From the IMG/VR virus record IMGVR_UViG_2585427767_000004: 18,960 bases of DNA; one strand, given 5' to 3'. The notes under the pieces were generated by a model. That model searched no databases. It was not told where the DNA came from and saw only the letters and a list, made by a program, of their open reading frames with translations. Position numbers and translations under genes: made by a program. Source of the stretch: a virus (Duplodnaviria; Heunggongvirae; Uroviricota; Caudoviricetes). Of this stretch, positions 1-16,070 are shown piece after piece. How positions within the stretch are numbered: the stretch's first letter is position 1; each line of letters opens with the position of its first letter.

Positions 1-884
1 ATGGGTATGCTGGAAAGAGAGATGAAAAACCTGGCGCGGCAGGCTGGCGGGGCGCACAAGATTGTCCATGACCGTATCGCCACGGCAGGACGGTTCTGTG
101 GACGCCTGATGGAACTGAACGTTCAGATACGCTATGTCCACCATTTAAAGACGAAGCATATTGAGGCGTATATTCAGATGCGGCTGGCGCAGGGGATTCA
201 GAAACAGACGCTGCATAATGAAACGGCGGCCATCCGTAAAATACTGACGCAGGCCGGGCGCGAAAAGCTGGCGCAGAGTGAGCGGATATCGAATAAATCG
301 CTGGGGCTGGCTGGCGTATCCCGCAACGGTACGCGGAAAGCCATTACGCCGGAATATTATCAACAGATGGCAGAGACTGCCCGGCTGAAAGACGCGGGAC
401 TGGAGGCAGCGCTGGAGCTGGCACGGCTGATGGGGTTACGTTCACAGGAAGCAGTACGCTGTTCCGGTTCACTAAAAACCTGGCGCGAAGCACTGGCGCA
501 CGGCGACACCCGGCTGACCGTGGTACTCGGCACCAAAGGCGGACGGCCCCGCGGCACCCTTATTCAGGATACTGGCGCAGTTAAACGGGCGCTTGAGACT
601 GCCATTGCGGTGACAGAACGGCGTAACGGCAGGCTGATTGATACGGCGAGCCTTAAACAGGCAATAAAATACTGGCGCAACCACACTTTGCGTATGGGCT
701 GACGGACAAATACTCCCCGCACTCACTGCGCTACGCCTGGGCGCAGGACGATATCCGCCGGTATCTGGCGCAAGGATTCAGCGAAAAAGAGGCGCTGGCA
801 ATGGTGGCGATGGGCCTGGGGCATGGCGACGGGCACGGTCGCTGGGTGAAGCAGGTGTACGCACACGAATGGAAGAAGGAATAA
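1..884 (+). pseudogene. Tyrosine recombinase (phage-type integrase), reading frame disrupted
   Basis: ORF 1..702 (233 aa) has an integrase-like N-terminal/central region including an Arg-containing box-I-like segment (RLTVVLGTKGGRPRG). TGA at 700-702 ends it, but the catalytic box II continues in another frame at 699..884 (LTDKYSPHSLRYAWAQDD...GLGHGDGHGRWVKQVYAHEWKKE, with His-x-x-Arg and a C-terminal Tyr). Either a real frameshift or a sequencing indel near 690-705. The ORF reaches the window start, so the true 5' end may lie upstream. Confidence 0.6.
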
Positions 885-2494: not shown

Positions 2495-3865
2495 ATGACT
2501 CTGAATGAATTTTCATCAACCACAGCATCTATTTTTGGTAATTTTGAAAAAATCATAAGAATGCTAAAAAGCATAAGTGACCCTAAATACATAACCGTTG
2601 CCAACAGAAGAAGCAAACTTTTGGGAAATATGTCCGAACATATTTCCATAATCAATAAATTCCATCCTTTCGCACATGCTGAATTCTTTACAAAAGAAGA
2701 AAAAGAAAATATCTTTTCACTACTAAAACTTACGGACAACTACATATCATCTATGATTTCTGATATTTTTTCAGATGATATTTATCGGAACATTATCACT
2801 ATCAATGATGATTTAATTAGGTATTCAAGAATATCTAAGTTTATCCAAGGCACGCATAATCAACCTAATACCTTAGCCATGTTCAAAAATCAAGCATCTA
2901 ATGAAATAGCCAAAGTGGTAGATCTGAAAAATGAAATTGAAATAAGTGCAACTCAAATCAGAGAGTTAGCAGTAAGAAATGCAAATTCTCATGATAAAAT
3001 CATTAAACTTGTTACGGACTTGAACGCCGAGACGAAAAAATTTGAAAGCGCCGGTTCTGAAATAGAATTCATACTAAAAAAGAGCAGAGATGCACTTATT
3101 GGTATAGAATCATCTAGTGAAAAGCTAAGAACTGTTGAAGAAACATTAAACAATATCGTTAATACAAACAAATCAATGCAAGACGAAATCATTAAAAAAT
3201 CTGCTGAGTCTGCCAGTGAGATTAAAAATCTCCTTGATAAAAAAAATGAAATTAAAGAATTAAAAACCATTATATCTGGTGAAATAAATAATGCGAAAGA
3301 ATTGAACTCTAAAGCTAATTCCGCATTGAATTTATCTGGAACATATAGGCTATCAAGACATTTTAGAGATGCATACAAAACCGCAAATAAAAACAAAAGG
3401 TTTTGGGCCTTTGTATCAATAGGAGCTGCAATCGTATGTATAGCATTCGTGGTTTATATGCTTGTCAAGATGAATGAAGTTAGTTCTTATCCTCCTACAG
3501 GCCAAGAGCCCAACTTATTATTATTATTCTTTGCTCGATTCTCAATGATTCCAGTATTAATAGGCTTCTTTGTATTTAGCGCCATACAATATGTTAAACA
3601 AAACAACATCAGTGAAGATTATGCGCATAAAAAATTGCTATCTGAAACTCTTGTATCTTTCAAGCAGGAAATCAATAAGAACGATACCGATAAATCATCA
3701 TTATTCATGGATAACATTCTTAAATCAGTATTAAGATCACCGCTTAGCTCCATAGACAAGAAGTCGCATCAAATGGAAATTGATAAAATAAACGAATTGA
3801 TTAATACGACATCTAAAATTAATAAAGAAATTATAGACCGCGTTTTGCCTGAGAAAGAGAAATAA
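2495..3865 (+). CDS. Hypothetical protein, 456 aa: coiled-coil-rich N-terminal domain, two predicted transmembrane helices, short C-terminal tail; candidate membrane effector (defence / superinfection exclusion); family not recognised
   Basis: Long uninterrupted ORF in a visibly AT-rich block, with ATG at 2495 and a weak GGA Shine-Dalgarno about 6 nt upstream. Residues about 309-330 (FWAFVSIGAAIVCIAFVVYMLV) and about 348-370 (LLLLFFARFSMIPVLIGFFVFSAI) are strongly hydrophobic. The N-terminal 300 aa are K/E/I/N-rich with heptad-like periodicity. No catalytic motif recognised. Confidence 0.8.
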   Translation: MTLNEFSSTTASIFGNFEKIIRMLKSISDPKYITVANRRSKLLGNMSEHISIINKFHPFAHAEFFTKEEKENIFSLLKLTDNYISSMISDIFSDDIYRNIITINDDLIRYSRISKFIQGTHNQPNTLAMFKNQASNEIAKVVDLKNEIEISATQIRELAVRNANSHDKIIKLVTDLNAETKKFESAGSEIEFILKKSRDALIGIESSSEKLRTVEETLNNIVNTNKSMQDEIIKKSAESASEIKNLLDKKNEIKELKTIISGEINNAKELNSKANSALNLSGTYRLSRHFRDAYKTANKNKRFWAFVSIGAAIVCIAFVVYMLVKMNEVSSYPPTGQEPNLLLLFFARFSMIPVLIGFFVFSAIQYVKQNNISEDYAHKKLLSETLVSFKQEINKNDTDKSSLFMDNILKSVLRSPLSSIDKKSHQMEIDKINELINTTSKINKEIIDRVLPEKEK

Positions 3866-4110
3866 CCTTATCTATAGCTACAAGGAAGGTAATATGCTTT
3901 TTGCAGTTACCTTCATGTAGCAGGTTTGCAATCACTACATATGTAATTTTTATTTCCCACTCATTCGCCCTAACTCAATTTGCATACTTACCTCATTAAT
4001 AGGCATTTTGTCTTCCATGAGTACATCCAAGCCTCTCCGGTCAGGGCATGAAGGGGCGCCAGTTCATAGACGGTGCAGTGATTCTGTCCAGTGCTGGCAT
4101 TCCGCATGCT

Positions 4111-4162
4111 GCAGCTGCGCGGCAAGCCTGAAATCTGCTGGCATACTTTACGCTCGGTGCGC
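4111..4162. repeat. Direct repeat R1 (about 51 bp), partner of 4306..4357
   Basis: GCAGCTGCGCGGCAAGCCTGAAATCTGCTGGCATACTTTACGCTCGGTGCG versus GCAGCTGCGCGGCCAGTCGGAAATCTGCTGGCATACTCTGCGCCCGGTGCG, near-identical by eye. Additional copies of a TGCTGGCA-like motif occur nearby (e.g. about 4091, 4181, 4362). Confidence 0.6.
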
Positions 4163-4305
4163 CGGTGAACACGGCCCGCAGCTGGCATCTTTACACATAA
4201 CCAGTACTGTAAAAGTCCCGTAATACCGTGTCGCCCGGTCATTTTCAAACCACCGTTTGGCCGCTACCATTCAGTACTTTTCGTCCTGCTGACAGATGTG
4301 CCATC

Positions 4306-4357
4306 GCAGCTGCGCGGCCAGTCGGAAATCTGCTGGCATACTCTGCGCCCGGTGCGG
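4306..4357. repeat. Direct repeat R2 (about 51 bp), partner of 4111..4162
   Basis: See R1; same orientation, about 195 bp apart, in a GC-rich segment with no convincing ORF. Confidence 0.6.
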
Positions 4358-4512
4358 TCGCAGAACTGCTGGCAGACAGTCCTTTCTTCATTTACCCACT
4401 ACCTGGACACAAAGCGTTGTACGTCCAGTTTGGGGGCGAATTATGATTAGGCAGGCTCCGGCAGTGCTCCCGGCTCTGTCAAAATTTAGTGACGTAAAGT
4501 CATGGAGGATCG

Positions 4513-4644
4513 GTGGGAGGAGGTGCAAATCCTCTCATACAAAAAATACGTAAAATCGGTAACGGCTGGAAATAATTCAATACTTGCACTATCGGAAGTT
4601 CACCAGCCAGCCGCAGCACGTTCTTGCATACGACGTGCCTGCGG
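4513..4644. repeat. Direct repeat A (about 130 bp), partner of 9108..9234; ends in a stem-loop
   Basis: Aligns by eye to 9108..9234 at roughly 80 percent identity (shared CAAATCCTCTC...GTAAAATCGGTA.C.GCTGGAAAT.ATTCAA...GCACTATCGGAAGTTCACCAGCC..CCGCAG). 3' hairpin CCGCAGCACG-loop-CGTGCCTGCGG followed by TTT. Confidence 0.7.
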
Positions 4645-5349
4645 TTTCAACTCCCGCCAGCCCACCAATCATGATTGGACGGTGTAAGGACAACACCAAA
4701 AAAACATGAAGTTAGCAGTCTCAGCGGAACACCGACCAGACGGTAAGCAGACAAAAAAGGATAAGCAAAGGAGCCGCAGTTCCCTAATGACACGAAAGCC
4801 CGCATTCTGATTAATTTGCTGTGCTTCACCTATCTCCATCAATAAAAACCATTCTTTTATAGCTTGTATATGCCAACTTGGCATGAATGCTTGTGATGAG
4901 TGAGGTGTGAAAGTTAGACGCAACATCCCCCTAGCGCCCACTCATTGCTATCGACGCCTTATTTTCAACATCAATGCAAATAGAAGTATGAAGATCGATG
5001 ATAGTAAACATTAGGTTAAAAAAACACGTAGTACTCTCCTTGGAGTATGAAGACGTTACTCACTTTAAGATTAGCATCCTCAAACCACTGTGAATTTGCT
5101 CCCATACGGAAAGAGGTGACTCAGACCTACAAAAATTTGTCAGGCCCGAAGGGTATCTTGCGCCAGCATAAAATACTGGATATAACCTAACTATTCATTT
5201 TAGCAATAGCCATTGCTTACGAGAGCTAGCTAATCTACGTAAATGCTAGGCATAACAGTGTCTTTAAAAGATATAGGTGGAATAAGTTCTGAAGTATGAG
5301 TGCTCTTCTTTTTCATCTATTCGTAATCAAAATGTGGATGTGATTGTTA

Positions 5350-8300
5350 ATGACAAATAAAAAAAATTTGAGTAATCCTTTTTCTACAGGCGGAGGCGGT
5401 GTTCATTTTGAAGCACATGTCCAAGCGTCTTTTGTTGCTCTAATGCTAACAGGCGGTAATGCACCTTGTCTTCCTTGTTGGCCCATAGTGGAGATAAATC
5501 TCCAGGGCAAGATTGATGGTTTTGATACCGACGACTTGATCGTCGTTGTTAAAGATTTCAACAGCAATGAAAAACGGAAGCTATTAGGACAAATAAAGCA
5601 TTCTATTTCATTTACGCAAGGTAATGCGATACTTGGGGAAGTTATACAGGCTGCTTGGAACGATTTCAACAATCCTGACTTGTTTACCAAGAACAAGGAT
5701 GTTATTGCACTGATCACCGGTCCGCTCAGTTCGACCGATACACACAATGTGCTCTGGTTATTGAATCAGGCTAGACACACAAAAACAGTCGATGAATTTT
5801 TGAGGAACGTTCAAAAAGCCAAGTTCAGCCCGCCTAAAAGTACTGAGAAACTGGAGGCCATCCAGTTTCATCTGAAGATGGCAAACAGTGGGAACGATTT
5901 AACAAACGATGAGCTTTATGACTTTTTGAACCATTTCCATTTACTAGGGTACGATCTGGGTAATGAATCAGGCGTCGTCCTTTCTTTGCTGCACTCCCAC
6001 ATAGCGCAATTCCATCAACAGTATCCTCAGTGGGTTTGGTCGCGGATAGTTGATATCGTACAAACTTGGAATAAAGATGCTGGCACTATCATTTCAAGTA
6101 AGCTACCTGAAGATCTTTTAGATGTTTTCAAACAAAGGGTTATTGCTGAAATACCTGAGAAGTTGAGGTTAGTACAACCGGTAGTCAAAACCGACTGGAC
6201 TCACCACCCAGATGCCTCTTATTTAGCCTTAGCAGTGTTGATTGGGCAATGGAATGATAAAAATGAGTGTGACCGAAATGTACTAACCCAATTGCTTGGT
6301 ATCAGCTATGACGAATGGCTAAGGAAGGCTCGAGAGATTTTACATAGCCCAGACAGTCCTTTGTCCCTAAAAAACGGCATTTGGAAAGTAACAAATCGAA
6401 TGGAGCTATGGAGTCTTCTTGGATCCCGCATTTTTGATCAGAATCTTGAATTGTTTAAGTCTTCCGCGATTTCCGTACTCAAAGAGCCAGACCCTGCTTT
6501 CGAATTACCTGCTGAAGAGCGTTACGCTGCTAGTATTCATGGTAAGGTGCTGAAGTTTTCATCCACGCTGCGACAAGGTATAGCAGAGGGTTTAGCCATA
6601 ATCGGGAGTCGGCCAGAGGTTTGCGTTAACTGCTCTCAGGGGAATGCTGAAACTTCCGTTAACGTCGCAATACATACAATTTTGACTGATGCAAACTGGG
6701 TTTTATGGGGTAGCCTAAACGGTTTGCTACCAACTTTGGCTGAAGCAGCTCCTGCAAAATTTCTTGATGCAGTTGAGAAGGCAATGCGTCAGACTCCTTG
6801 TGCATTTGATGAGCTTTTTTCTCAAGAAGTAAATGGTATCACTGGTGGTAATTATCTGACAGGACTGCTATGGGCTCTAGAAGAATTAGCCTGGGATGAG
6901 CAATACCTAGTACGCGTCTGTGTTGTACTGGCCGAACTTGCCAGCCACGATCCTGGGGGCAAGTGGGCTAATCGACCATCTAACTCGCTTACTACTATAT
7001 TATTACCGTGGTTTCCGCAAACGCTGGCATCTATAGAAAAACGAAAAGTTGCAGTCAACGTCATCTTGCAGGAATGGCCTGACATTGCCTGGAATTTACT
7101 CGTCCAGCTTCTACCCGGTCACCATCAAACCTCTTCTGGGTCACACAAGCCCTCTTGGCGCCGAATAATCCCAGATGATTGGGAAAGCAAAGTGACTAAT
7201 CAGGATTACTGGTTGCAGACATCTTTTTATGCTGAGCTTGCCGTCAAAAACGCCGGAGAAGATATCGAACGCCTTACCTTGTTGATTGATAATTTTGATG
7301 GCCTTCCATCTCCTGCTTTCGAACATCTTCTTAAGCACCTCTCTTCGGAAACAATTAATTGTCTTAATGAAGAGCAGCGAGTTGTAATTTGGGATCATCT
7401 TCATCGATTCGCAAATAAACATCGGCGATTCTCTAATGCTAATTGGGCTTTACCTGATGATCTGCTGACCAAAATCGAAAATGTTGCCGAGCAACTGGCA
7501 CCTACCAATCCATTCAACTTATATCAGCACCTTTTTTCAAATCGAGATTTTGATCTTTACTTAGAAAATGGCGATTGGGAAGAACGGAGAAATAAACTCG
7601 AATCAAGGCGCGAATCCGCAATATCAGAAATTCTTAAGCAAGATGGCGCAGAAGGCGTTATTCGATTTGCAGATCACGTTTCTGCGCCCCATCAAATAGG
7701 AAGTGTACTCGGCACTATCAACGATGATGTGTTCGAAAAACTTCTTTTGCCCCGTTTCCTCAATACAAAAGAAAATAAGTATAAGGCATTGGTAAGCGCT
7801 TTTATTTGGAAGCGTTTCTATCTCAAAGGCTGGGAGTGGTTCGACAATCTGGATAAAGCTGACTGGACTCCTGAACAGTTAGGCCAATTCTTTGCTTATC
7901 TGCCTTTTAACAAGGAGACCTGGACCCGAGTCTCTCATTATCCTCAAGCTTCCGAGAACGAATATTGGGCTCGCACCGATGCAAATCCTGACCTGGGTGA
8001 AGGTGACCTTACTAGTGCCATCGATAAGCTGATTGATCATGGCAGACCTCTTGCGGCAATCAATTGCCTGTGCAGGATGCATCAGACAAAGCAGCCAATC
8101 GATACTGAACAGTGTATCCGCGCTTTGCTTGCTGCCACTTCAACTAACGAATCTAGCTCCAACATGGATGGTTACAACATAACTACCCTTATCCAATTTC
8201 TTCAGACTGATCCCAAAGTGAATCCGGATAATCTTTTTCAGATCGAGTGGGCTTACCTTCCATTGCTCGATGGTCACCAAGATGCTGTGCCTAAGTTCCT

Positions 8301-8892
8301 TGAGAATAAAATGGCTAATGATCCAGAATTTTTCTGCGAAGTAATCCAACTCATTTATCGTTCTGACAAAGAAGACAATATGACAAGTGAACCAACAGAG
8401 GAATTGAAAGCAATCGCAAAAAATGCCTGGACTCTTTTGTACAACTGGAAGACACCGCCAGGAAGCCAATCAAATGGGACGTTCAACGGAGAACGCTTTA
8501 CTGAATGGCTTCAGAAAGTTAAGGAGGGTTCTACGGCATCAGGTCACCTGGACGTTGCACTCAGCAAAGTTGGTGAAGTCTTGATTTATACTCCCTCCGA
8601 ACCGAATGGCTTGTGGATAAACCGAGAGGTCGCAGCTGCTCTCAACGATCGAGATGCTGAGAGTATGCGCAGGGGCTACATGACAGGAGCCTACAACTCA
8701 CGAGGTGTTTATTGTGTTGACCCAACTGGAAAACCTGAGAGAGAGCTAGCTGACCAGTTCCGGGCAAAAGCAGAAGAAGTGGAAAACGCTGGTTTTCAGC
8801 GATTCGCCGTTACCTTAAGAGATTTAGCGGTTGGCTATGACCACGAAGCTGCACAGGTTATCAGCAATCTAAATATTGGAGAGGATGATTAA
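5350..8892 (+). CDS. Large hypothetical protein (about 1180 aa), no P-loop; family not recognised; candidate stand-alone defence or toxin protein
   Basis: Uninterrupted 3.5-kb ORF. The track starts at TTG 5344, but ATG 5350 (MTNKKNLSNPF...) is the more likely start. Moderately AT-rich compared with the tail genes. No Walker A (GxxxxGK[ST]) found on reading the translation. Gly-rich N-terminus (FSTGGGGVHFEAH), CxxC pairs (CLPC, CVNC), Trp-rich helical remainder. Putative terminator just downstream. Confidence 0.85.
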   Translation: MTNKKNLSNPFSTGGGGVHFEAHVQASFVALMLTGGNAPCLPCWPIVEINLQGKIDGFDTDDLIVVVKDFNSNEKRKLLGQIKHSISFTQGNAILGEVIQAAWNDFNNPDLFTKNKDVIALITGPLSSTDTHNVLWLLNQARHTKTVDEFLRNVQKAKFSPPKSTEKLEAIQFHLKMANSGNDLTNDELYDFLNHFHLLGYDLGNESGVVLSLLHSHIAQFHQQYPQWVWSRIVDIVQTWNKDAGTIISSKLPEDLLDVFKQRVIAEIPEKLRLVQPVVKTDWTHHPDASYLALAVLIGQWNDKNECDRNVLTQLLGISYDEWLRKAREILHSPDSPLSLKNGIWKVTNRMELWSLLGSRIFDQNLELFKSSAISVLKEPDPAFELPAEERYAASIHGKVLKFSSTLRQGIAEGLAIIGSRPEVCVNCSQGNAETSVNVAIHTILTDANWVLWGSLNGLLPTLAEAAPAKFLDAVEKAMRQTPCAFDELFSQEVNGITGGNYLTGLLWALEELAWDEQYLVRVCVVLAELASHDPGGKWANRPSNSLTTILLPWFPQTLASIEKRKVAVNVILQEWPDIAWNLLVQLLPGHHQTSSGSHKPSWRRIIPDDWESKVTNQDYWLQTSFYAELAVKNAGEDIERLTLLIDNFDGLPSPAFEHLLKHLSSETINCLNEEQRVVIWDHLHRFANKHRRFSNANWALPDDLLTKIENVAEQLAPTNPFNLYQHLFSNRDFDLYLENGDWEERRNKLESRRESAISEILKQDGAEGVIRFADHVSAPHQIGSVLGTINDDVFEKLLLPRFLNTKENKYKALVSAFIWKRFYLKGWEWFDNLDKADWTPEQLGQFFAYLPFNKETWTRVSHYPQASENEYWARTDANPDLGEGDLTSAIDKLIDHGRPLAAINCLCRMHQTKQPIDTEQCIRALLAATSTNESSSNMDGYNITTLIQFLQTDPKVNPDNLFQIEWAYLPLLDGHQDAVPKFLENKMANDPEFFCEVIQLIYRSDKEDNMTSEPTEELKAIAKNAWTLLYNWKTPPGSQSNGTFNGERFTEWLQKVKEGSTASGHLDVALSKVGEVLIYTPSEPNGLWINREVAAALNDRDAESMRRGYMTGAYNSRGVYCVDPTGKPERELADQFRAKAEEVENAGFQRFAVTLRDLAVGYDHEAAQVISNLNIGEDD

Positions 8893-12656: not shown

Positions 12657-15600
12657 TCAACGGATACTGATACCGGAAGCAGCTTTTTTGGTCACAATCA
12701 CTGTACAGTCTGTGATGTTACCTGCGCCCTGATTGCCTTTCTGGAAAACCTTAAACTCCAGAGTGACGCTTCCCCTGCCACTCGGCATATCAATAACCGC
12801 ACTGTAGCTACCGGGAATGGCCCCTTTAGTTTCTCTGGATGCGATTAATACACCGTTTTTGCGAACTTCAAAACCATAACCCGTGTATCTTGTACCTCCC
12901 GGGTTATTACCACTTCCCGGATCGCTATACGCTATTCCGTTAAAGATAATGGGCGGAATAATGATTTGACGGTCAAAGTTATGATCATCGCTGATGGTGA
13001 CTGTAACCGTCCCGTTTGGTGTTTCCGTATTACCCCACGTACCAGCCTGTTTCGGGAATGATTTGGATACAGCTTTAACGAAGTCACCTCTGACCTGAGT
13101 CGCCTCCAGCATGCCCTTAATCGTACAGTTTTCATTTACCGTGACATTGTTGAACGTCCCGGCGTTCGCATTCACACTGCCACTGATATCCGCATTTTTA
13201 GCGGTCAGCTTTCCGTCTGATGTCAGGGAAAATGCCGGTGGATTTCCACCACTGGTAATGGTCGGGGCCGTCAGGCGCTTCAGGAACACGTCGTTCATAA
13301 ATATCTGATTGCCCTGCGCCACAAACATCGGCGTTTCATTCCCGTTTGCCGGGTCAATAAACGCGATACGGTTAGCGGCAACCAGAAACTGGCTCAGCTT
13401 GCCTTCTTCCGTGTCCTCCATGCTGAGGCCAATACCCGCGACATAATGTTTGCCGTCTTTGGTCTGCTCAATTTTGACGCCCCACATGGCATTCCACTTA
13501 TCGTTAGCGTCCTGCCACTCTTTCGAAAACTCCTCCAGTTTGCTGGCGTTATCCTCCGTCAGCTCGACTTTTTCCAGCAGCTCCTTGCCGAGATGGGATT
13601 CGGTTATCTGGCCTTTGAAAAAATCCAGGTAACCTTCCGCATCATCGCTCGCCTGACCGACAGCCTCCACGAATGCCGATTTGCCAACGGTGTTCACACT
13701 GCGGATATAAAAGTAATAATCATGGCCCGGTTTGATATTGATACTGGCGGCTATCCAGTACATCCCCGTGCCAAGATAGCGGGCTGTGGTTTCAACCTGC
13801 CTGATATCCGCAATCCGTTTTTCCGAGAACCAGAACTCAAACTGTACCGTCGGGTCATAAACCGCAAGATGCGGCGTGGCGGTTATCTGAAAATAGCCCG
13901 GTGTCAGCTCAATCCGAGACGGCGCTGCCGGTGCGGCAATCCGGAACGATACCGATGCCGGATCGCCCTGCTGTCCCCACGCATTTACCGCCCGGACTGT
14001 CAGCCTGTAGTTCCCCAGCGCCAGTTGCGTGAAGCGGTATGTGGTTTCCGCCGTCCGGGCCGTGCTGACCAGCCGCTCACTGCCGTCATCCGCTGCCACG
14101 GTCAGGCGAAGCATGAAACTCACGCCCTTCACCACCTTCGGCGTGTCCCAGCGGGCCAGCACCTGGTATTCCCCACTGTCTGCGGTGACTTCGGCAGTCA
14201 GGTGCTGCACCGCTGGCGGCGTGACACCATTCACCGTGCCGCTCTGGTCGCCGTCAAAGTGCGCCCCGTTATCCACGATGGCTTCTTTTTCCGGTACATG
14301 CTGCACGGCGGTGATGGCATACGTGCCGTCGTCGTTCTCACGGATACTCACGCAGCGGAACAGGCGCTGGCGCAGCGTCGGCAGCTTCAGCCCCCACACG
14401 CTGTATTCAGCAACGCCGTCAGGAACACGGCTCACTTTCACCTTCACGCCGTCGGTGACGGACTGAACCTCCACGCTGACCGGATTGCCACTTCCGTCAA
14501 CCAGGCTTATCAGCGTGGTACCGGAGGATGGCAGCGTGATTTCACGGTCGAGCGTCAGCGTCCGGGTCTGGCTGTTTACCGCCAGCACGCGCCCGCCGGT
14601 GCTGATACCGGCATAGTCATCATCACAGATTTCAATGACATCGCCCGGCACATGGCGAAGCCCTTCGGCACCCACGCTGAAGTCCACCGTCTGCGTTTCC
14701 AGCAGCTCCGTTTTAATCAGCCACAGCCCGGCGCGGTGTGCCTGCCCCCGGCTGGTACAGCCAAAGGCATCCATCTTCGTGACGTTACGACCGTAACGGG
14801 CAATGGCCTGCGAGTCCTCCACAAGCTCTGTTGCCGTCTCCCAGCCGTTATCCGGGTCAATCCAGTTCACCTCAACGGCATTATGGCGGTCTTTCAGGGC
14901 GCTGAAGCTGTAGCGGAACGGCGCGCCATCATCCGGCATCACCACATTACTGCGGTTATAGGTCCACACCTTATCCGACGGTCGGTCCTGCACGAACGTC
15001 AGCGTCTGCCCGTTCCATACCGGCATACAGCGCATCGCCGAGCAGAAATCACTGAGCACATCCCACGCCTTGCGCTGTGTGGTCAGGTATGCATTACAGG
15101 TGATGCGCGGCTCCGTGCCGCCAAAGCCGTCCGGTACTGACTGGTCGCAGTACTGGCCGATGACATACAGCGCCCATTTGTCCACATCCGCCGCACCAAG
15201 ACGTTTCCCCATGCCGTAGCGTGGATGGGTCAGCATATCCCACAGACACCAGGCCATGTTGTTGCTGTATGCCGGTTTAAACGTTCCGTCCCAGATACCG
15301 CTGTATTGCCGCGTCTGCGGGTTATAGTTCGACGGCACCTGCAGAATGCGCCCGCGAAGATGATAATTACGGCTCACCTGCTGGCTGCCGAACTGCTCCG
15401 AATCCACCTGTACGCCGACCAGTGCCGTGTTCGGGTAGCACTGTTTCACATCGATGATTTCGGTGTATGACGACCAGAGCGTTTTGTTCTGCAGCTGGTC
15501 TGTGGTGCTGTCCGGTGTCATCCTGCGCATCCGGATATTGAACGGGCGCGGCGGCAGGTTATCCACCACCACCGAGGCCAGATACTGCGAGGTGGTTTTG

Positions 15601-16070
15601 CCCTTAATGGTGATGTCTTTTTCCGTCACCCAGCCACCGTTACGCTGTATCTGAACCAGCAGGCGGACTTCCGACGGATTCCTGTCTCCCTTTGAGGTGG
15701 TTTCCACCAGTGCCTGTACACCGAAGGTAAAGCGCAGACGGTCGATGTTTGCCGACGTGATGGTCCGGGTGATCGGCGTGTCATATTTCACTTCCGTACC
15801 CAGCACCGTCTCGGAGCCGGAGGATTCAAATCCCTCCGGCGGTGACTGCTCCTGCTCACCGGCCCGGAACACCACCGTGACGCCGGAGATGTTGGTATTC
15901 CCCTCAGTGTCCAGCACCGGCGTACTGTTCAGCAGCACACTTTTTAATCCCTCCACCGGACCTTCAACCGGCCCTTCGCTGATGGCATCGATCACACTCA
16001 GCAACTGCGTGGACTTCAGGTTGTCCTTCGCTTCGCGCGGGGTATGCCCCTTACTGCTGCCTTTACCCAT
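12657..16070 (-). CDS. J: Host specificity protein J (central tail fibre / tip attachment protein)
   Basis: 1137-aa protein beginning [34 protein letters not shown], colinear with lambda J as I recall it over most of its length. The C-terminal roughly 130 aa (from about [20 protein letters not shown]) appear different. GGAG ribosome-binding site upstream. Confidence 0.95.

What the first reader, a model, noticed from the sequence alone, without database searches (positions are those of the whole stretch)
4090..4385. Array of TGCTGGCA-containing repeats in a GC-rich non-coding spacer, with sigma-54-like GG/GC spacing
Two 51-bp direct repeats (4111..4162 and 4306..4357) plus extra TGCTGGCA-like copies occur within 300 bp. 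In both long repeats the TGGCA is followed by a GC dinucleotide at the spacing expected for a -24/-12 promoter (TGGCAT-N-ACGC / TGGCAT-N-TGCGC). Each repeat also carries an internal inverted repeat (CAGCTGCGCGG ... CCGCAGCTG). This could be a regulatory region, a protein-binding array or a structured RNA. It is speculative, but it is not explained by any ORF.
Basis: inference. Interest (0 to 1): 0.4.

Follow-up and report, generated by a model that had tools for sequence, protein, structure and literature searches.

The report
Non-coding plasmid-type repeat cassette
The repeats are real but are not sigma-54 promoters or a folded RNA: they form a rare, non-coding cassette of plasmid type, bounded by short palindromic junction sites that mark where gene modules are swapped in enterobacterial plasmids and lambda-like prophages.

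Summary
A 51-nt direct repeat lies at 4111-4161 and 4306-4356 (88% identical). Six co-oriented TGCTGGCA-type boxes lie within 283 bp.

The real unit, R, is about 125 nt. It has three boxes 44 bp apart, separated by near-invariant blocks and variable spacers of fixed length. The window holds R1, an 85-nt segment S, and R2. The whole module (4068-4427) is bounded by 23-nt quasi-palindromic junction sites, J (GGACrttcagGTnaTTCTGTCCA).

The same module occurs in Pantoea, Klebsiella, Salmonella and E. coli plasmids, in metagenome contigs and in a few prophages. A 750-bp long form also exists. The window copy lacks 396 bp of it, as expected from S x S' recombination.

Tests did not support coding, structured RNA, an Frpo/ssi-type ssDNA fold, or sigma-54. 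Indels are 2 and 8 nt, and pN/pS is 0.74-0.84, like control frames. Alifold gave -11/-8 kcal/mol with no covariation. Mean fold z was about -0.3. The -12 GC is not conserved.

J sites mark module boundaries. 82 of 267 homology breakpoints lie at J against 9 expected, and one cassette differs between two loci by a precise J-to-J indel.

Best reading: a DNA-level protein-binding cassette tied to J-mediated module exchange, here probably a passenger. Its function is inferred, not shown.

The parts
4068..4090 (+). Left junction site J: AGACGGTGCAGTGATTCTGTCCA. It has 1 mismatch at the 12 anchor positions and lies directly next to box 1.
   Evidence: Scan. L043 and L057 have the same site type at the same place.
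4091..4199 (+). Repeat unit R1 with three boxes at 4092-4099, 4136-4143 and 4180-4187, 44 nt apart. Its 3' part is the 'R1 type' that is joined to S.
   Evidence: nhmmer hit at 4067-4199, E=2.8e-33. Boxes. Alignment.
4111..4161 (+).
4190..4287 (+). Segment S, a conserved non-coding spacer. In this window it is a hybrid: its left part is S-type and its right part is S'-type. That is the expected scar of an S x S' deletion removing 396 bp of the long form.
   Evidence: nhmmer hit E=1.5e-30 and alignment. Long forms.
4273..4387 (+). Repeat unit R2 with boxes at 4287-4294 (TGCTGACA), 4331-4338 and 4367-4374. The last spacing is 36 nt rather than 44 because one copy of the 8-nt tandem CCGGTGCG is missing near 4351.
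   Evidence: nhmmer E=1.4e-27. Alignments. Boxes.
4306..4356 (+). Second copy of the 51-nt direct repeat (inside R2).
4405..4427 (.). Right junction site J core (GGACACAAAGCGTTGTACGTCCA). It reads better on the minus strand (GGACGTACAACGCTTTGTGTCCA, 1 mismatch), so it is an inverted J fused head-to-head to R2's own upstream context.
   Evidence: L004 7503 and L045 4567 have the same J type, and L057 and L001 have the same arrangement.
4428..4476 (-). Conserved context of the inverted J (CTAATCATAATTCGCCCCCAAACT on the minus strand), plus the start of a neighbouring module. In L057 that module continues into a 258-aa gene. Here it is cut off before the unrelated element at 4488-4803.
   Evidence: Alignment of window, L001 and L057. 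J contexts.
4064..4144 (-). Small minus-strand ORF that starts at the reverse complement of box 2 (MPADFRLAAQLQHAECQHWTESLHRL). Tested as a rival reading and not supported.
   Evidence: Translation. pN/pS is no better than control frames, and some relatives have stops or non-ATG starts.
4271..4339 (-). Paralogous small minus-strand ORF in R2 (MPADFRLAAQLRWHICQQDEKY). Tested and not supported.

Best explanation
SHOWN. Window 4068-4427 is one non-coding cassette of plasmid type. It consists of J, R1, S, R2 and an inverted J. Each R unit carries three co-oriented TGCTGGCA boxes at a 44-bp pitch. Between the boxes lie two near-invariant blocks (GCAGCTGCGCGGCCAG and CCGGTGCGGTCGCAGAAC) and variable spacers of fixed length. 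The window copy is the short form of a 750-bp module. It lacks the 396 bp between S and S', which in the long form carry a 36-codon ORF on the minus strand. The 23-nt J sites bound this cassette. In related plasmids and prophages they also bound gene-sized modules whose order, orientation and presence differ between replicons.

INFERRED. R works as double-stranded DNA, as a multi-site binding platform for a still unknown protein. In layout it resembles the arm-type or accessory sites that sit beside the core sites of recombination systems, or an operator array. J sites are the crossover points at which cassettes are gained, lost or inverted by a RecA-independent, probably site-specific, mechanism. 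In this prophage the cassette is most likely a passenger that arrived with plasmid-like cargo, and it probably has no promoter role for the neighbouring genes.
For: Anatomy and family. Profile hits to R and S occur in plasmids, metagenome contigs and viral contigs. Consensus strings show invariant blocks against variable spacers.

Long and short forms. Different short-form loci have different crossover points inside S.

Not coding. Indels are 2 and 8 nt. pN/pS is 0.74-0.84, compared with 0.59-1.46 in the other five frames. No Pfam or NCBIfam hit.

Not structured. Rfam gives nothing. Alifold gives -11.4 and -7.6 kcal/mol with covariance about 0. ssDNA fold z-scores run from -2.0 to +1.65 with a mean near -0.3 on both strands.

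J as module boundary. Plasmid pET826 has 7 J copies, all on one strand and all within 5 kb, against 0.2 expected. 82 of 267 homology breakpoints lie within 45 nt of a J, against 9.3 expected (maximum 21 in 1000 randomisations). Outside R +/-300 nt the figure is 21 of 124 against 3.3. L045 and L053 differ by a precise J-to-J indel of an 860-nt cassette. Module order differs between L004 and L010. The window, L001 and L057 carry an inverted J junction, and the adjoining gene is inverted in L057. The longest exact identity between J copies of one array is 6-19 nt, which is short for RecA-dependent exchange (established knowledge).

About a third of J sites are followed directly by a TGCTGG-type box, so box 1 of R is part of a recurrent J+box composite.
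Against: No binding protein or recombinase has been identified. The ResD-type recombinase found near R in five loci is 87-91% identical to F-plasmid ResD in L003 and L010 (about 43% in L005) and may be only a backbone neighbour.

J does not resemble the dif, cer, attC or lox core sequences as I recall them. This comparison was from memory, not run with a tool.

The 44-bp pitch is not an exact multiple of 10.5 bp.

The module-boundary pattern could partly reflect ascertainment, because the loci were collected through R. The control outside R reduces this concern but does not remove it.

Substitutions I tallied by eye within the GCAGCTGCGCGGCCAG block from the listing avoid second codon positions of the minus-strand ORF (about 9:1:7 for positions 1:2:3, p about 0.05). 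Some translation therefore cannot be excluded.

The element is rare: 3 of 5,426 complete E. coli genomes and 38 of 72,556 plasmids. It is therefore not a core plasmid function.
Confidence: 0.45

Rival explanations
1. CUP-like regulon. J plus the adjacent TGCTGGCA box is a shared promoter and operator region for a plasmid-encoded regulator. R is an array of extra operator or -35-like sites, acting as a titration or regulatory array. Module shuffling at J is then only a by-product of the repeated regulatory DNA.
For: Several J sites are followed by GTTCTGCTGGCA, then 18 nt, then TGnTAnnAT, then a Shine-Dalgarno sequence and a gene (L004 5770, L068 341 and 951, L003 3478). CTGGCA matches TTGACA at 4 of 6 positions. 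IncN plasmids offer a precedent: CUP repeats carry promoters and ArdK operators (PMC6289460).
Against: Many J sites lie at the 3' ends of genes, or between convergent genes, with no + strand gene after them. The R boxes have no -10 element at 17-18 nt, and the promoter scan found no site in 3800-5400. The genes after J+promoter sites are small membrane proteins, not regulators. R46 CUP repeats show no similarity to J or R. Identities of 6-19 nt are short for homologous exchange.
Confidence: 0.2
2. Minus-strand leader. R is transcribed on the minus strand and encodes a 19-27 aa peptide that starts at the reverse complement of box 2 (ATGCCAGCA = Met-Pro-Ala). It acts as a leader or 5' region for a downstream minus-strand gene.
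For: An ATG is present at box 2 in most copies, and a GAGGG Shine-Dalgarno sequence lies 6-7 nt upstream in several (L010, L005, L050, L043). Leu, Ala and Gln codons vary synonymously in some copies, and second codon positions rarely change. In about half of the loci a minus-strand gene lies just downstream, for example L010 and L045.
Against: pN/pS of 0.74-0.84 is no better than control frames. Relatives show stops (L043 R1, L011, L020), an ACG start (L050) and GTG starts (L063, L014), and peptide length varies from 11 to 36 aa. The three boxes fall in three different frames, so translation cannot explain why the boxes are conserved. In the window the downstream gene is on the other strand. 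No NCBIfam hit.
Confidence: 0.12
3. Single-strand element. R or J act on the transferred single strand, as an ssDNA promoter of the Frpo/ssi type or a priming signal, or R is a structured RNA.
For: In pET826 all J sites and R lie on the strand inferred to be the transferred strand, just beyond the leading region. TGCTGGCA is nearly self-complementary if G-T pairs are allowed, so boxes can pair with each other, as in the hairpin in R2.
Against: There is no similarity to the F leading region, which holds the Frpo copies. Fold z-scores are near zero on both strands for nine R copies and for the whole module. There is no covariation and no Rfam hit. Genes in the arrays face both ways, unlike in leading regions (PMC11541004).
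Confidence: 0.07
4. Sigma-54 promoters. The TGGCA boxes would be -24 elements, with a GC at -12.
For: Three boxes in the window have GG and GC at the right spacing. Box 1 matches 9 of 12 consensus positions.
Against: Scores of 7-9 of 12 are weak. The -12 GC is absent in most diverged relatives although the boxes are invariant. Neither large flanking ORF matches any family with an enhancer-binding domain. The nearest + strand gene starts about 950 nt away. The box count reflects the repeat structure, and 50 of 200 shuffles reach the same motif count.
Confidence: 0.03
5. Decaying remnant of a protein-coding gene or of an internal gene duplication.
For: The region is GC-rich and has several overlapping ORFs of 40-86 aa. 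PGAP annotates one 48-aa 'hypothetical protein' here in E. coli 19AR1321.
Against: No Pfam family matches any ORF. Relatives differ by 2- and 8-nt indels yet keep invariant blocks. No frame is open in all copies. Block-and-spacer conservation across distant replicons points to selection on the DNA itself.
Confidence: 0.05

Closest known systems
CUP (conserved upstream) repeats of the IncN plasmid leading region (pKM101/R46; Delver and Belogurov 1997, cited in PMC6289460)
   Same: Both are repeated non-coding elements lying between small accessory or establishment genes next to a umuDC-type operon (mucAB). Some copies carry a promoter, and the repeats sit at boundaries between gene modules.
   Different: There is no sequence similarity: R46 has no J, R or S. 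CUPs are 240-650 nt and always lie upstream of genes, with an ArdK operator. J is about 23-50 nt and is often at gene 3' ends. R has no detectable promoter.
pdif / dif modules of Acinetobacter plasmids (XerC/XerD sites flanking discrete modules; PMC13141974, PMC9947245)
   Same: Short sites with dyad symmetry bound gene-sized modules. Module content, order and orientation differ between related plasmids, and modules often hold toxin-antitoxin or small accessory genes.
   Different: As I recall the dif sequence, J does not resemble the 11-6-11 XerC/XerD site. This was a comparison from memory, not a tool test. pdif sites alternate in orientation, whereas J copies are mostly co-oriented. No recombinase has been tied to J.
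Integron attC sites and gene cassettes
   Same: Co-oriented sites sit at the 3' end of each cassette. Single cassettes show presence/absence differences. The variable part of the site travels with the upstream cassette.
   Different: J lacks the RYYYAAC/GTTRRRY core as I recall it (not tested with a tool), and forms no long attC-type hairpin. Cassettes face both ways and carry their own promoters and terminators. No IntI-type integrase lies at the end of the array.
Arm-type or accessory binding sites of complex recombination sites (lambda attP arm sites; Tn3 res subsites; integron attI DR1/DR2)
   Same: R has several short direct repeats at a fixed pitch next to a dyad-symmetric core. It is non-coding, and its sequence blocks are conserved while the spacers vary.
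   Different: This is a resemblance of layout only, drawn from memory. No binding has been shown and no cognate recombinase identified.
Frpo/ssi single-stranded DNA promoters of plasmid leading regions (PMC11541004)
   Same: Both are non-coding repeated elements near the leading region, on the strand inferred to be transferred in pET826.
   Different: R shows no sequence similarity to the F leading region, no long stable hairpin, and no -35/-10 pair.

Membership tests
Sigma-54 (-24/-12) promoter | GG and GC dinucleotides 10 nt apart (TGGCAC-N5-TTGCW) | tested here: met
   Present at 4095, 4139 and 4334, but 50 of 200 shuffles give as many matches.
Sigma-54 (-24/-12) promoter | Strong match to the extended consensus, with the -12 element conserved in homologues | tested here: not met
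   Scores are 9, 8 and 7 of 12 in the window. The -12 GC is absent after box 2 in most diverged family members.
Sigma-54 (-24/-12) promoter | A nearby enhancer-binding protein or upstream activator site, and a downstream gene | tested here: not met
   The flanking ORFs (456 aa and 1182 aa) have no Sigma54_activat or other Pfam/NCBIfam domain. The next + strand gene is about 950 nt away.
Frpo/ssi ssDNA promoter | Sequence similarity to known Frpo copies | tested here: not met
   nhmmer and blastn against the F leading region 48-68 kb found nothing above chance.
Frpo/ssi ssDNA promoter | A long stable hairpin of the single strand that mimics duplex -35/-10 elements | tested here: not met
   DNA folds give z from -2.0 to +1.65, mean about -0.3, on both strands. 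The whole module gives z of -0.66 and -1.03.
Structured non-coding RNA | Match to a curated family, or a conserved fold with covariation | tested here: not met
   No Rfam hit in 4060-4440. Alifold on 18 R copies gives -11.4/-7.6 kcal/mol with covariance about 0. S gives -3.3/-7.0 kcal/mol.
Protein-coding gene or pseudogene | A conserved open frame, indels in multiples of three, excess synonymous change, domain hits | tested here: not met
Integron cassette array (attC) | Co-oriented short sites bounding single cassettes, with cassette presence/absence differences | tested here: met
Integron cassette array (attC) | attC core sequences (RYYYAAC...GTTRRRY) with an extended imperfect hairpin, and an adjacent intI gene | not tested
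   Compared by eye only, against the consensus as I recall it: the J consensus cT GGACattcagGTnaTTCTGTCCA g has a 5-6 bp dyad only. No IntI gene appears in the annotated loci.
Xer/dif modules | A 28-bp site with XerC and XerD arms around a 6-8 bp centre | not tested
   Compared by eye only: J does not match the dif/cer arms as I recall them. No profile or alignment was run.
IncN CUP repeats | Homology to R46/pKM101 CUP sequences with an ArdK operator | tested here: not met
   No J, R or S was found in R46, and its CUP repeats are unrelated 240-650 nt repeats.
Plasmid centromere or iteron array | Regularly spaced repeats next to, and used by, par or rep genes | tested here: not met
   Regular 44-bp spacing is present, but the neighbouring parAB operon has its own 16-bp palindromes upstream of parA. 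Most R copies have no par or rep gene nearby.
Site-specific recombination site (general) | Recombinase-dependent, RecA-independent exchange at the site | not testable with these tools
   Only indirect evidence is available: breakpoints lie at J, one indel is precise, and shared identity is 6-19 nt.

The most novel reading that the evidence does not exclude
The 23-nt J sites define an undescribed cassette-exchange system that resembles integrons or dif modules but is unrelated to either in sequence. It would operate in the accessory region next to SRAP-umuDC and parAB of F-like and IncR-like plasmids, and in the b-region of lambdoid prophages. The R unit, with three TGCTGGCA boxes, would be its non-coding accessory or primary site, where the still unidentified recombinase or partner protein assembles.
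Probability: 0.2. Interest if true: 0.7.

Novelty: new variant of a known kind. Interest (0 to 1): 0.45.

Why it matters
If J sites really are recombination junctions, enterobacterial plasmids and lambda-like prophages would share a compact way to swap small cargo modules. These modules include type I toxins, small membrane proteins and candidate defence or anti-defence genes. The mechanism would be separate from integrons, Xer/dif modules and insertion sequences. This could explain mosaic accessory regions next to umuDC and parAB, and would give a sequence tag for finding such cargo.

For this window the practical result is narrower. The repeat array should not be annotated as sigma-54 promoters, as an RNA gene or as a 'hypothetical protein'. 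It marks plasmid-derived DNA inside a prophage cargo region.

Tried and rejected
1. Sigma-54 promoters. Weak scores, and the -12 element is not conserved.
2. Rfam families. None at the gathering threshold. In the 3800-5400 region only a weak CssrB-like hit at 4612-4683, outside the feature.
3. Consensus RNA structure of R and of S on both strands. None found.
4. Frpo/ssi. No similarity to the F leading region and no unusual ssDNA stability.
5. Plus-strand Cys-rich ORF and minus-strand MPA... ORF. Frames are not conserved, pN/pS matches the control frames, and there are no family hits.
6. Type I toxin-antitoxin link through dqlB. dqlB is simply a neighbouring J-bounded module.
7. Resolution site for the ResD-type recombinase. 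In L003 and L010 the recombinase is 87-91% identical to F-plasmid ResD. At up to 2 mismatches, F has no J site in the 42-48.5 kb region fetched.
8. parAB centromere. The par operon has its own palindromes.
9. Homology with IncN CUP repeats. None.
10. An antisense target of R elsewhere in the plasmid. Only chance-level 11-13-mers were found.
11. Sigma-70 promoter in S on the minus strand (TTGAAA, 17 nt, TATTAC). It lacks the invariant final T, the -35 is poor in most relatives, and the scan tool finds nothing.
12. Literature searches by sequence string and by concept. No description of J or R was found. The library is incomplete, so this does not prove the elements are new.
Full report
OBSERVATION

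The repeats are real. The repeat finder reports a 51-nt direct repeat at 4111-4161 and 4306-4356, 88% identical and spaced 195 nt, plus a third partial copy at 4357-4377.

TGCTGGCA with at most one mismatch occurs six times between 4092 and 4374. All six are on the + strand, with start-to-start spacings of 44, 44, 107, 44 and 36 nt. Four of the six exact copies in the 18,960-nt window lie here.

The motif TGGCAY-N7-GC is present at 4095, 4139 and 4334. The inverted repeat CAGCTGCG/CGCAGCTG exists in R1 only. No ORF through the region matches a protein family.

TRUE EXTENT

Alignment with relatives shows that the repeat unit, which I call R, is about 125 nt. Its layout is:
- box 1, TGCTGGCAT
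- a variable stretch of about 10 nt
- the block GCAGCTGCGCGGCCAG
- 4 variable nt, then AAA, then 2 variable nt
- box 2, TGCTGGCAT
- about 13 variable nt
- the block (TGCG)CCGGTGCGGTCGCAGAAC
- box 3, TGCTGGCA

The window holds R1 (4091-4199), an 85-nt conserved segment S (4190-4287) and R2 (4273-4387). The last box spacing in R2 is 36 nt rather than 44. One copy of an 8-nt tandem CCGGTGCG is missing there, and the same indel appears in an unrelated copy, L014.

RELATIVES

In 5,426 complete E. coli genomes the module occurs in only three. Two are chromosomal prophage copies and one is on a plasmid. In PLSDB, 38 of 72,556 plasmids have a match. They come from Klebsiella, Salmonella, Pantoea, Escherichia, Kosakonia, Enterobacter, Lelliottia and Citrobacter, and most are conjugative IncF-type plasmids.

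A pattern scan of metagenome contigs, filtered with a profile, added about 20 loci. One viral contig (L107) carries the same R1-S-R2 as the window. Only one of the GTDB species-representative genomes matched.

Many loci have two direct R copies 180-600 nt apart, so the pair is a family trait.

LONG AND SHORT FORMS

E. coli 19AR1321 (L001), Pantoea pCB1C (L002), L047, L057 and L084 carry a long form, R1-S-X-S'-R2. Here S and S' are 83-nt direct repeats, and X is about 313 nt.

X carries a 36-codon ORF on the minus strand, with a GAGGAA ribosome-binding site. It matches no NCBIfam family.

The window's S is S-type on its left and S'-type on its right. L043 and L060 are S-type throughout. The short forms therefore arose at least twice, by recombination between S and S'.

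WHAT IT IS NOT

Coding.
- Relatives differ by 2-nt and 8-nt indels.
- No frame is open in all copies.
- The most attractive small ORF lies on the minus strand and starts at the reverse complement of box 2 (ATGCCAGCA = Met-Pro-Ala). Its pN/pS is 0.74-0.84, within the range of the five control frames (0.59-1.46).
- Some copies of that ORF have stops, or ACG or GTG starts.
- The three boxes fall in three different frames.
- One reservation remains. By my own count from the listing, substitutions in one block avoid second codon positions, at about 9:1:7. That is marginal.

RNA.
- There is no Rfam hit over the feature.
- RNAalifold on 18 diverse R copies gives -11.4 kcal/mol on the + strand and -7.6 on the - strand, with a covariance term near zero.
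- S gives -3.3 and -7.0 kcal/mol.

Single-stranded DNA structure.
- The 401-nt module folds with z of -0.66 and -1.03.
- Nine R copies give z from -2.0 to +1.65 on either strand.
- There is no similarity to the F leading region, which holds the Frpo copies.

Sigma-54.
- The window boxes match TGGCACG-N4-TTGCW at 9, 8 and 7 of 12 positions.
- In most diverged relatives the GC is not at the -12 spacing, although the boxes are invariant.
- Neither large flanking ORF matches any family with an enhancer-binding domain.

Centromere. The neighbouring parAB operon has its own 16-bp palindromes.

Sigma-70. The scan found no promoter-like site in 3800-5400.

JUNCTION SITES

Every complete R is bounded by a 23-nt quasi-palindrome, which I call J. 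The consensus from 43 distinct copies is cT GGACattcagGTnaTTCTGTCCA g.

About 25 nt of upstream context is also conserved (TTAnnTAATyCC...CGCGCCAC). A rho-independent terminator often lies just before it.

J is not specific to R. It recurs between neighbouring cargo genes in the same loci, almost always on the same strand as R.

In the complete F-type plasmid pET826 (NZ_CP100904.1) there are seven copies.
- All are on one strand and all lie in 39.8-44.7 kb, against 0.2 expected by chance.
- The array follows, in order from oriT, the leading region, SRAP-umuDC and parAB.
- It splits the DNA into modules of 260-1,400 bp whose genes face either way.
- One module is S-R itself.

Several lines of evidence mark J as a module boundary.
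- Among 21 non-redundant loci, 82 of 267 BLAST homology end points lie within 45 nt of a J centre. The random expectation is 9.3, with a maximum of 21 in 1,000 randomisations.
- After excluding everything within 300 nt of R, the figure is 21 of 124 against 3.3, maximum 9.
- L053 reads R-J-flank, whereas L045 reads R-J-[860 nt with a 258-aa gene]-J-same flank. The two alignments overlap exactly on the J core.
- Module order differs between plasmids. The dqlB module lies before R in L004 and after R in L010.
- J copies within one array share only 6-19 nt of exact identity.
- Where two loci share the module to the right of a J but differ to its left, or the reverse, the variable centre of J follows the left module. 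This places the exchange within or near TTCTGTCCA (my reading).

THE WINDOW'S JUNCTIONS

The left J lies at 4068-4090.

The right J core (4405-4427) reads better on the minus strand, and its conserved context lies at 4428-4452. It is therefore an inverted J joined head-to-head to R2's own upstream context. L001 and L057 show the same arrangement.

In L057 the following module, a 258-aa gene, is inverted relative to L004, L011 and L045. In the window that module is cut off after about 50 nt. An unrelated, very widespread element follows at 4488-4803.

INTERPRETATION

The following points are shown:
- The feature is a non-coding cassette of plasmid type. It has a conserved block-and-spacer architecture and defined ends, and it exists in a long and a short form.
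- It sits in a class of J-bounded module arrays found in plasmids and in lambdoid prophages next to SRAP/umuDC (L001, L102).

The following points are inferred:
- R acts as double-stranded DNA that binds a protein at several sites. The support is that invariant blocks with fixed spacing survive across distant replicons, while the coding, RNA and single-strand tests did not support those readings.
- J sites are crossover points for RecA-independent exchange.
- In this prophage the cassette is probably a passenger.

The main alternative is a CUP-like regulon in which J plus a box is a promoter and operator region. That fits a minority of J sites, where a good extended -10 promoter and a gene follow. 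It does not fit the many J sites at gene 3' ends.

I could not identify the protein partner. The ResD-type recombinase found near R in five loci is 87-91% identical to F-plasmid ResD in L003 and L010, and about 43% identical in L005. It is part of the IncR/IncF backbone (PMC9412624).

COMPARISON WITH KNOWN SYSTEMS

In layout the arrays resemble IncN CUP repeats, Acinetobacter pdif modules and integron cassettes. R resembles arm-type or accessory sites of complex recombination sites.

None of these is a membership. R46 has no related sequence. J does not look like the dif or attC cores as I recall them, which I did not test with a tool. No integron-type integrase is present in the annotated loci.

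My literature searches found no description of J or R. The library is incomplete, so this is weak evidence of novelty.

VERDICT

The sigma-54 and RNA readings are not supported. The feature itself is a rare non-coding plasmid cassette, and I rate its interest as moderate.

It is the possibility of a J-based cassette-exchange system, which I put at about 0.2 probability.

LIMITS
- There are no expression or binding data.
- The loci were collected through R.
- Strand co-orientation with the transferred strand was checked in one plasmid only.
- Comparisons with the dif, attC and lox cores were made from memory.

Noticed in passing
window 4488-4803: A separate element is present in 3,412 of 5,426 complete E. 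coli genomes and in the lambda b region (J02459 24162-24318, 88% identical). It lies just upstream of variable cargo: a type II restriction enzyme and cytosine methylase next to paoD in one strain, and the 1182-aa ORF here. A weak CssrB-like hairpin lies on the minus strand at 4612-4683 (24 bits, gathering score 76). It may be the flank of a cargo hotspot or an sRNA gene.
   Followed up: partly
window 5344-8892 (+): This 1182-aa ORF has no Pfam, NCBIfam or PADLOC match. In E. coli SC418 the same gene follows the same upstream element. It is a candidate for an unknown defence or cargo gene.
   Followed up: partly
window 2495-3865 (+): This 456-aa ORF has no Pfam or NCBIfam match, and only weak PADLOC hits to DruC and ZorA (E 1e-4 and 2e-3). 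In E. coli 19AR1321 it follows an SRAP-umuC-umuD cluster next to ssrA.
   Followed up: partly
window 1-702 (+): A tyrosine integrase of the PF12834/PF12835 type. The catalytic-domain match stops at profile position 132 of 149 and the ORF ends at 233 aa, so the gene may be truncated. The first 1,509 nt match an 'integrase | tRNA-Thr' locus in other E. coli at 99.9%, although ARAGORN finds no tRNA in the window.
   Followed up: no
window 13446-15140 (+), inside the gpJ gene (12657-16070, -); also L102 731-2425 (-): A 564-aa ORF runs antisense to the tail-tip gene J. An antisense ORF of exactly the same length lies in the J gene of an unrelated viral contig. It is either a conserved long antisense frame or a codon-bias artefact.
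   Followed up: no
L001 6419-6713; L002 4188-4500 (segment X of the long form): A 36-codon ORF on the minus strand (MYMYQLIKLYGGQMAPNPSEYRILFQGKYLAAIWIYA) with a GAGGAA ribosome-binding site. By my own comparison of the aligned sequences, three of the five differences between versions are synonymous. No NCBIfam match. It is absent from the window.
   Followed up: partly
L098 26834-36794 (plasmid pET826): umuC is split by a roughly 8.7-kb insertion that carries two tyrosine recombinases, a type II restriction enzyme and methylase, and an AAA ATPase. This recalls the integron-like elements that target rulB on pWW0 (PMC4542609).
   Followed up: no
L010 1846-1861 and 2066-2081: Two copies of the perfect 16-bp palindrome GATTTCGCATGCGAAATC lie upstream of parA. 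They are probably the ParB operator or centromere of this plasmid group.
   Followed up: no
L108 about 5960-6000 (F plasmid, downstream of resD): On the minus strand, F carries TTCTGTCCATTGCTGAC. This is a J right half-site followed by a box-like sequence, with a poor left half. It is a degenerate relative of the J+box composite in the classical F plasmid.
   Followed up: no
L010 4345 and 4553 (dqlB module): Two direct copies of GTTAGATTGAAAGTTTC lie upstream of the DinQ-like type I toxin gene dqlB. This recalls the agrA/agrB antisense RNA repeats of dinQ. The whole dqlB module is bounded by J sites.
   Followed up: no
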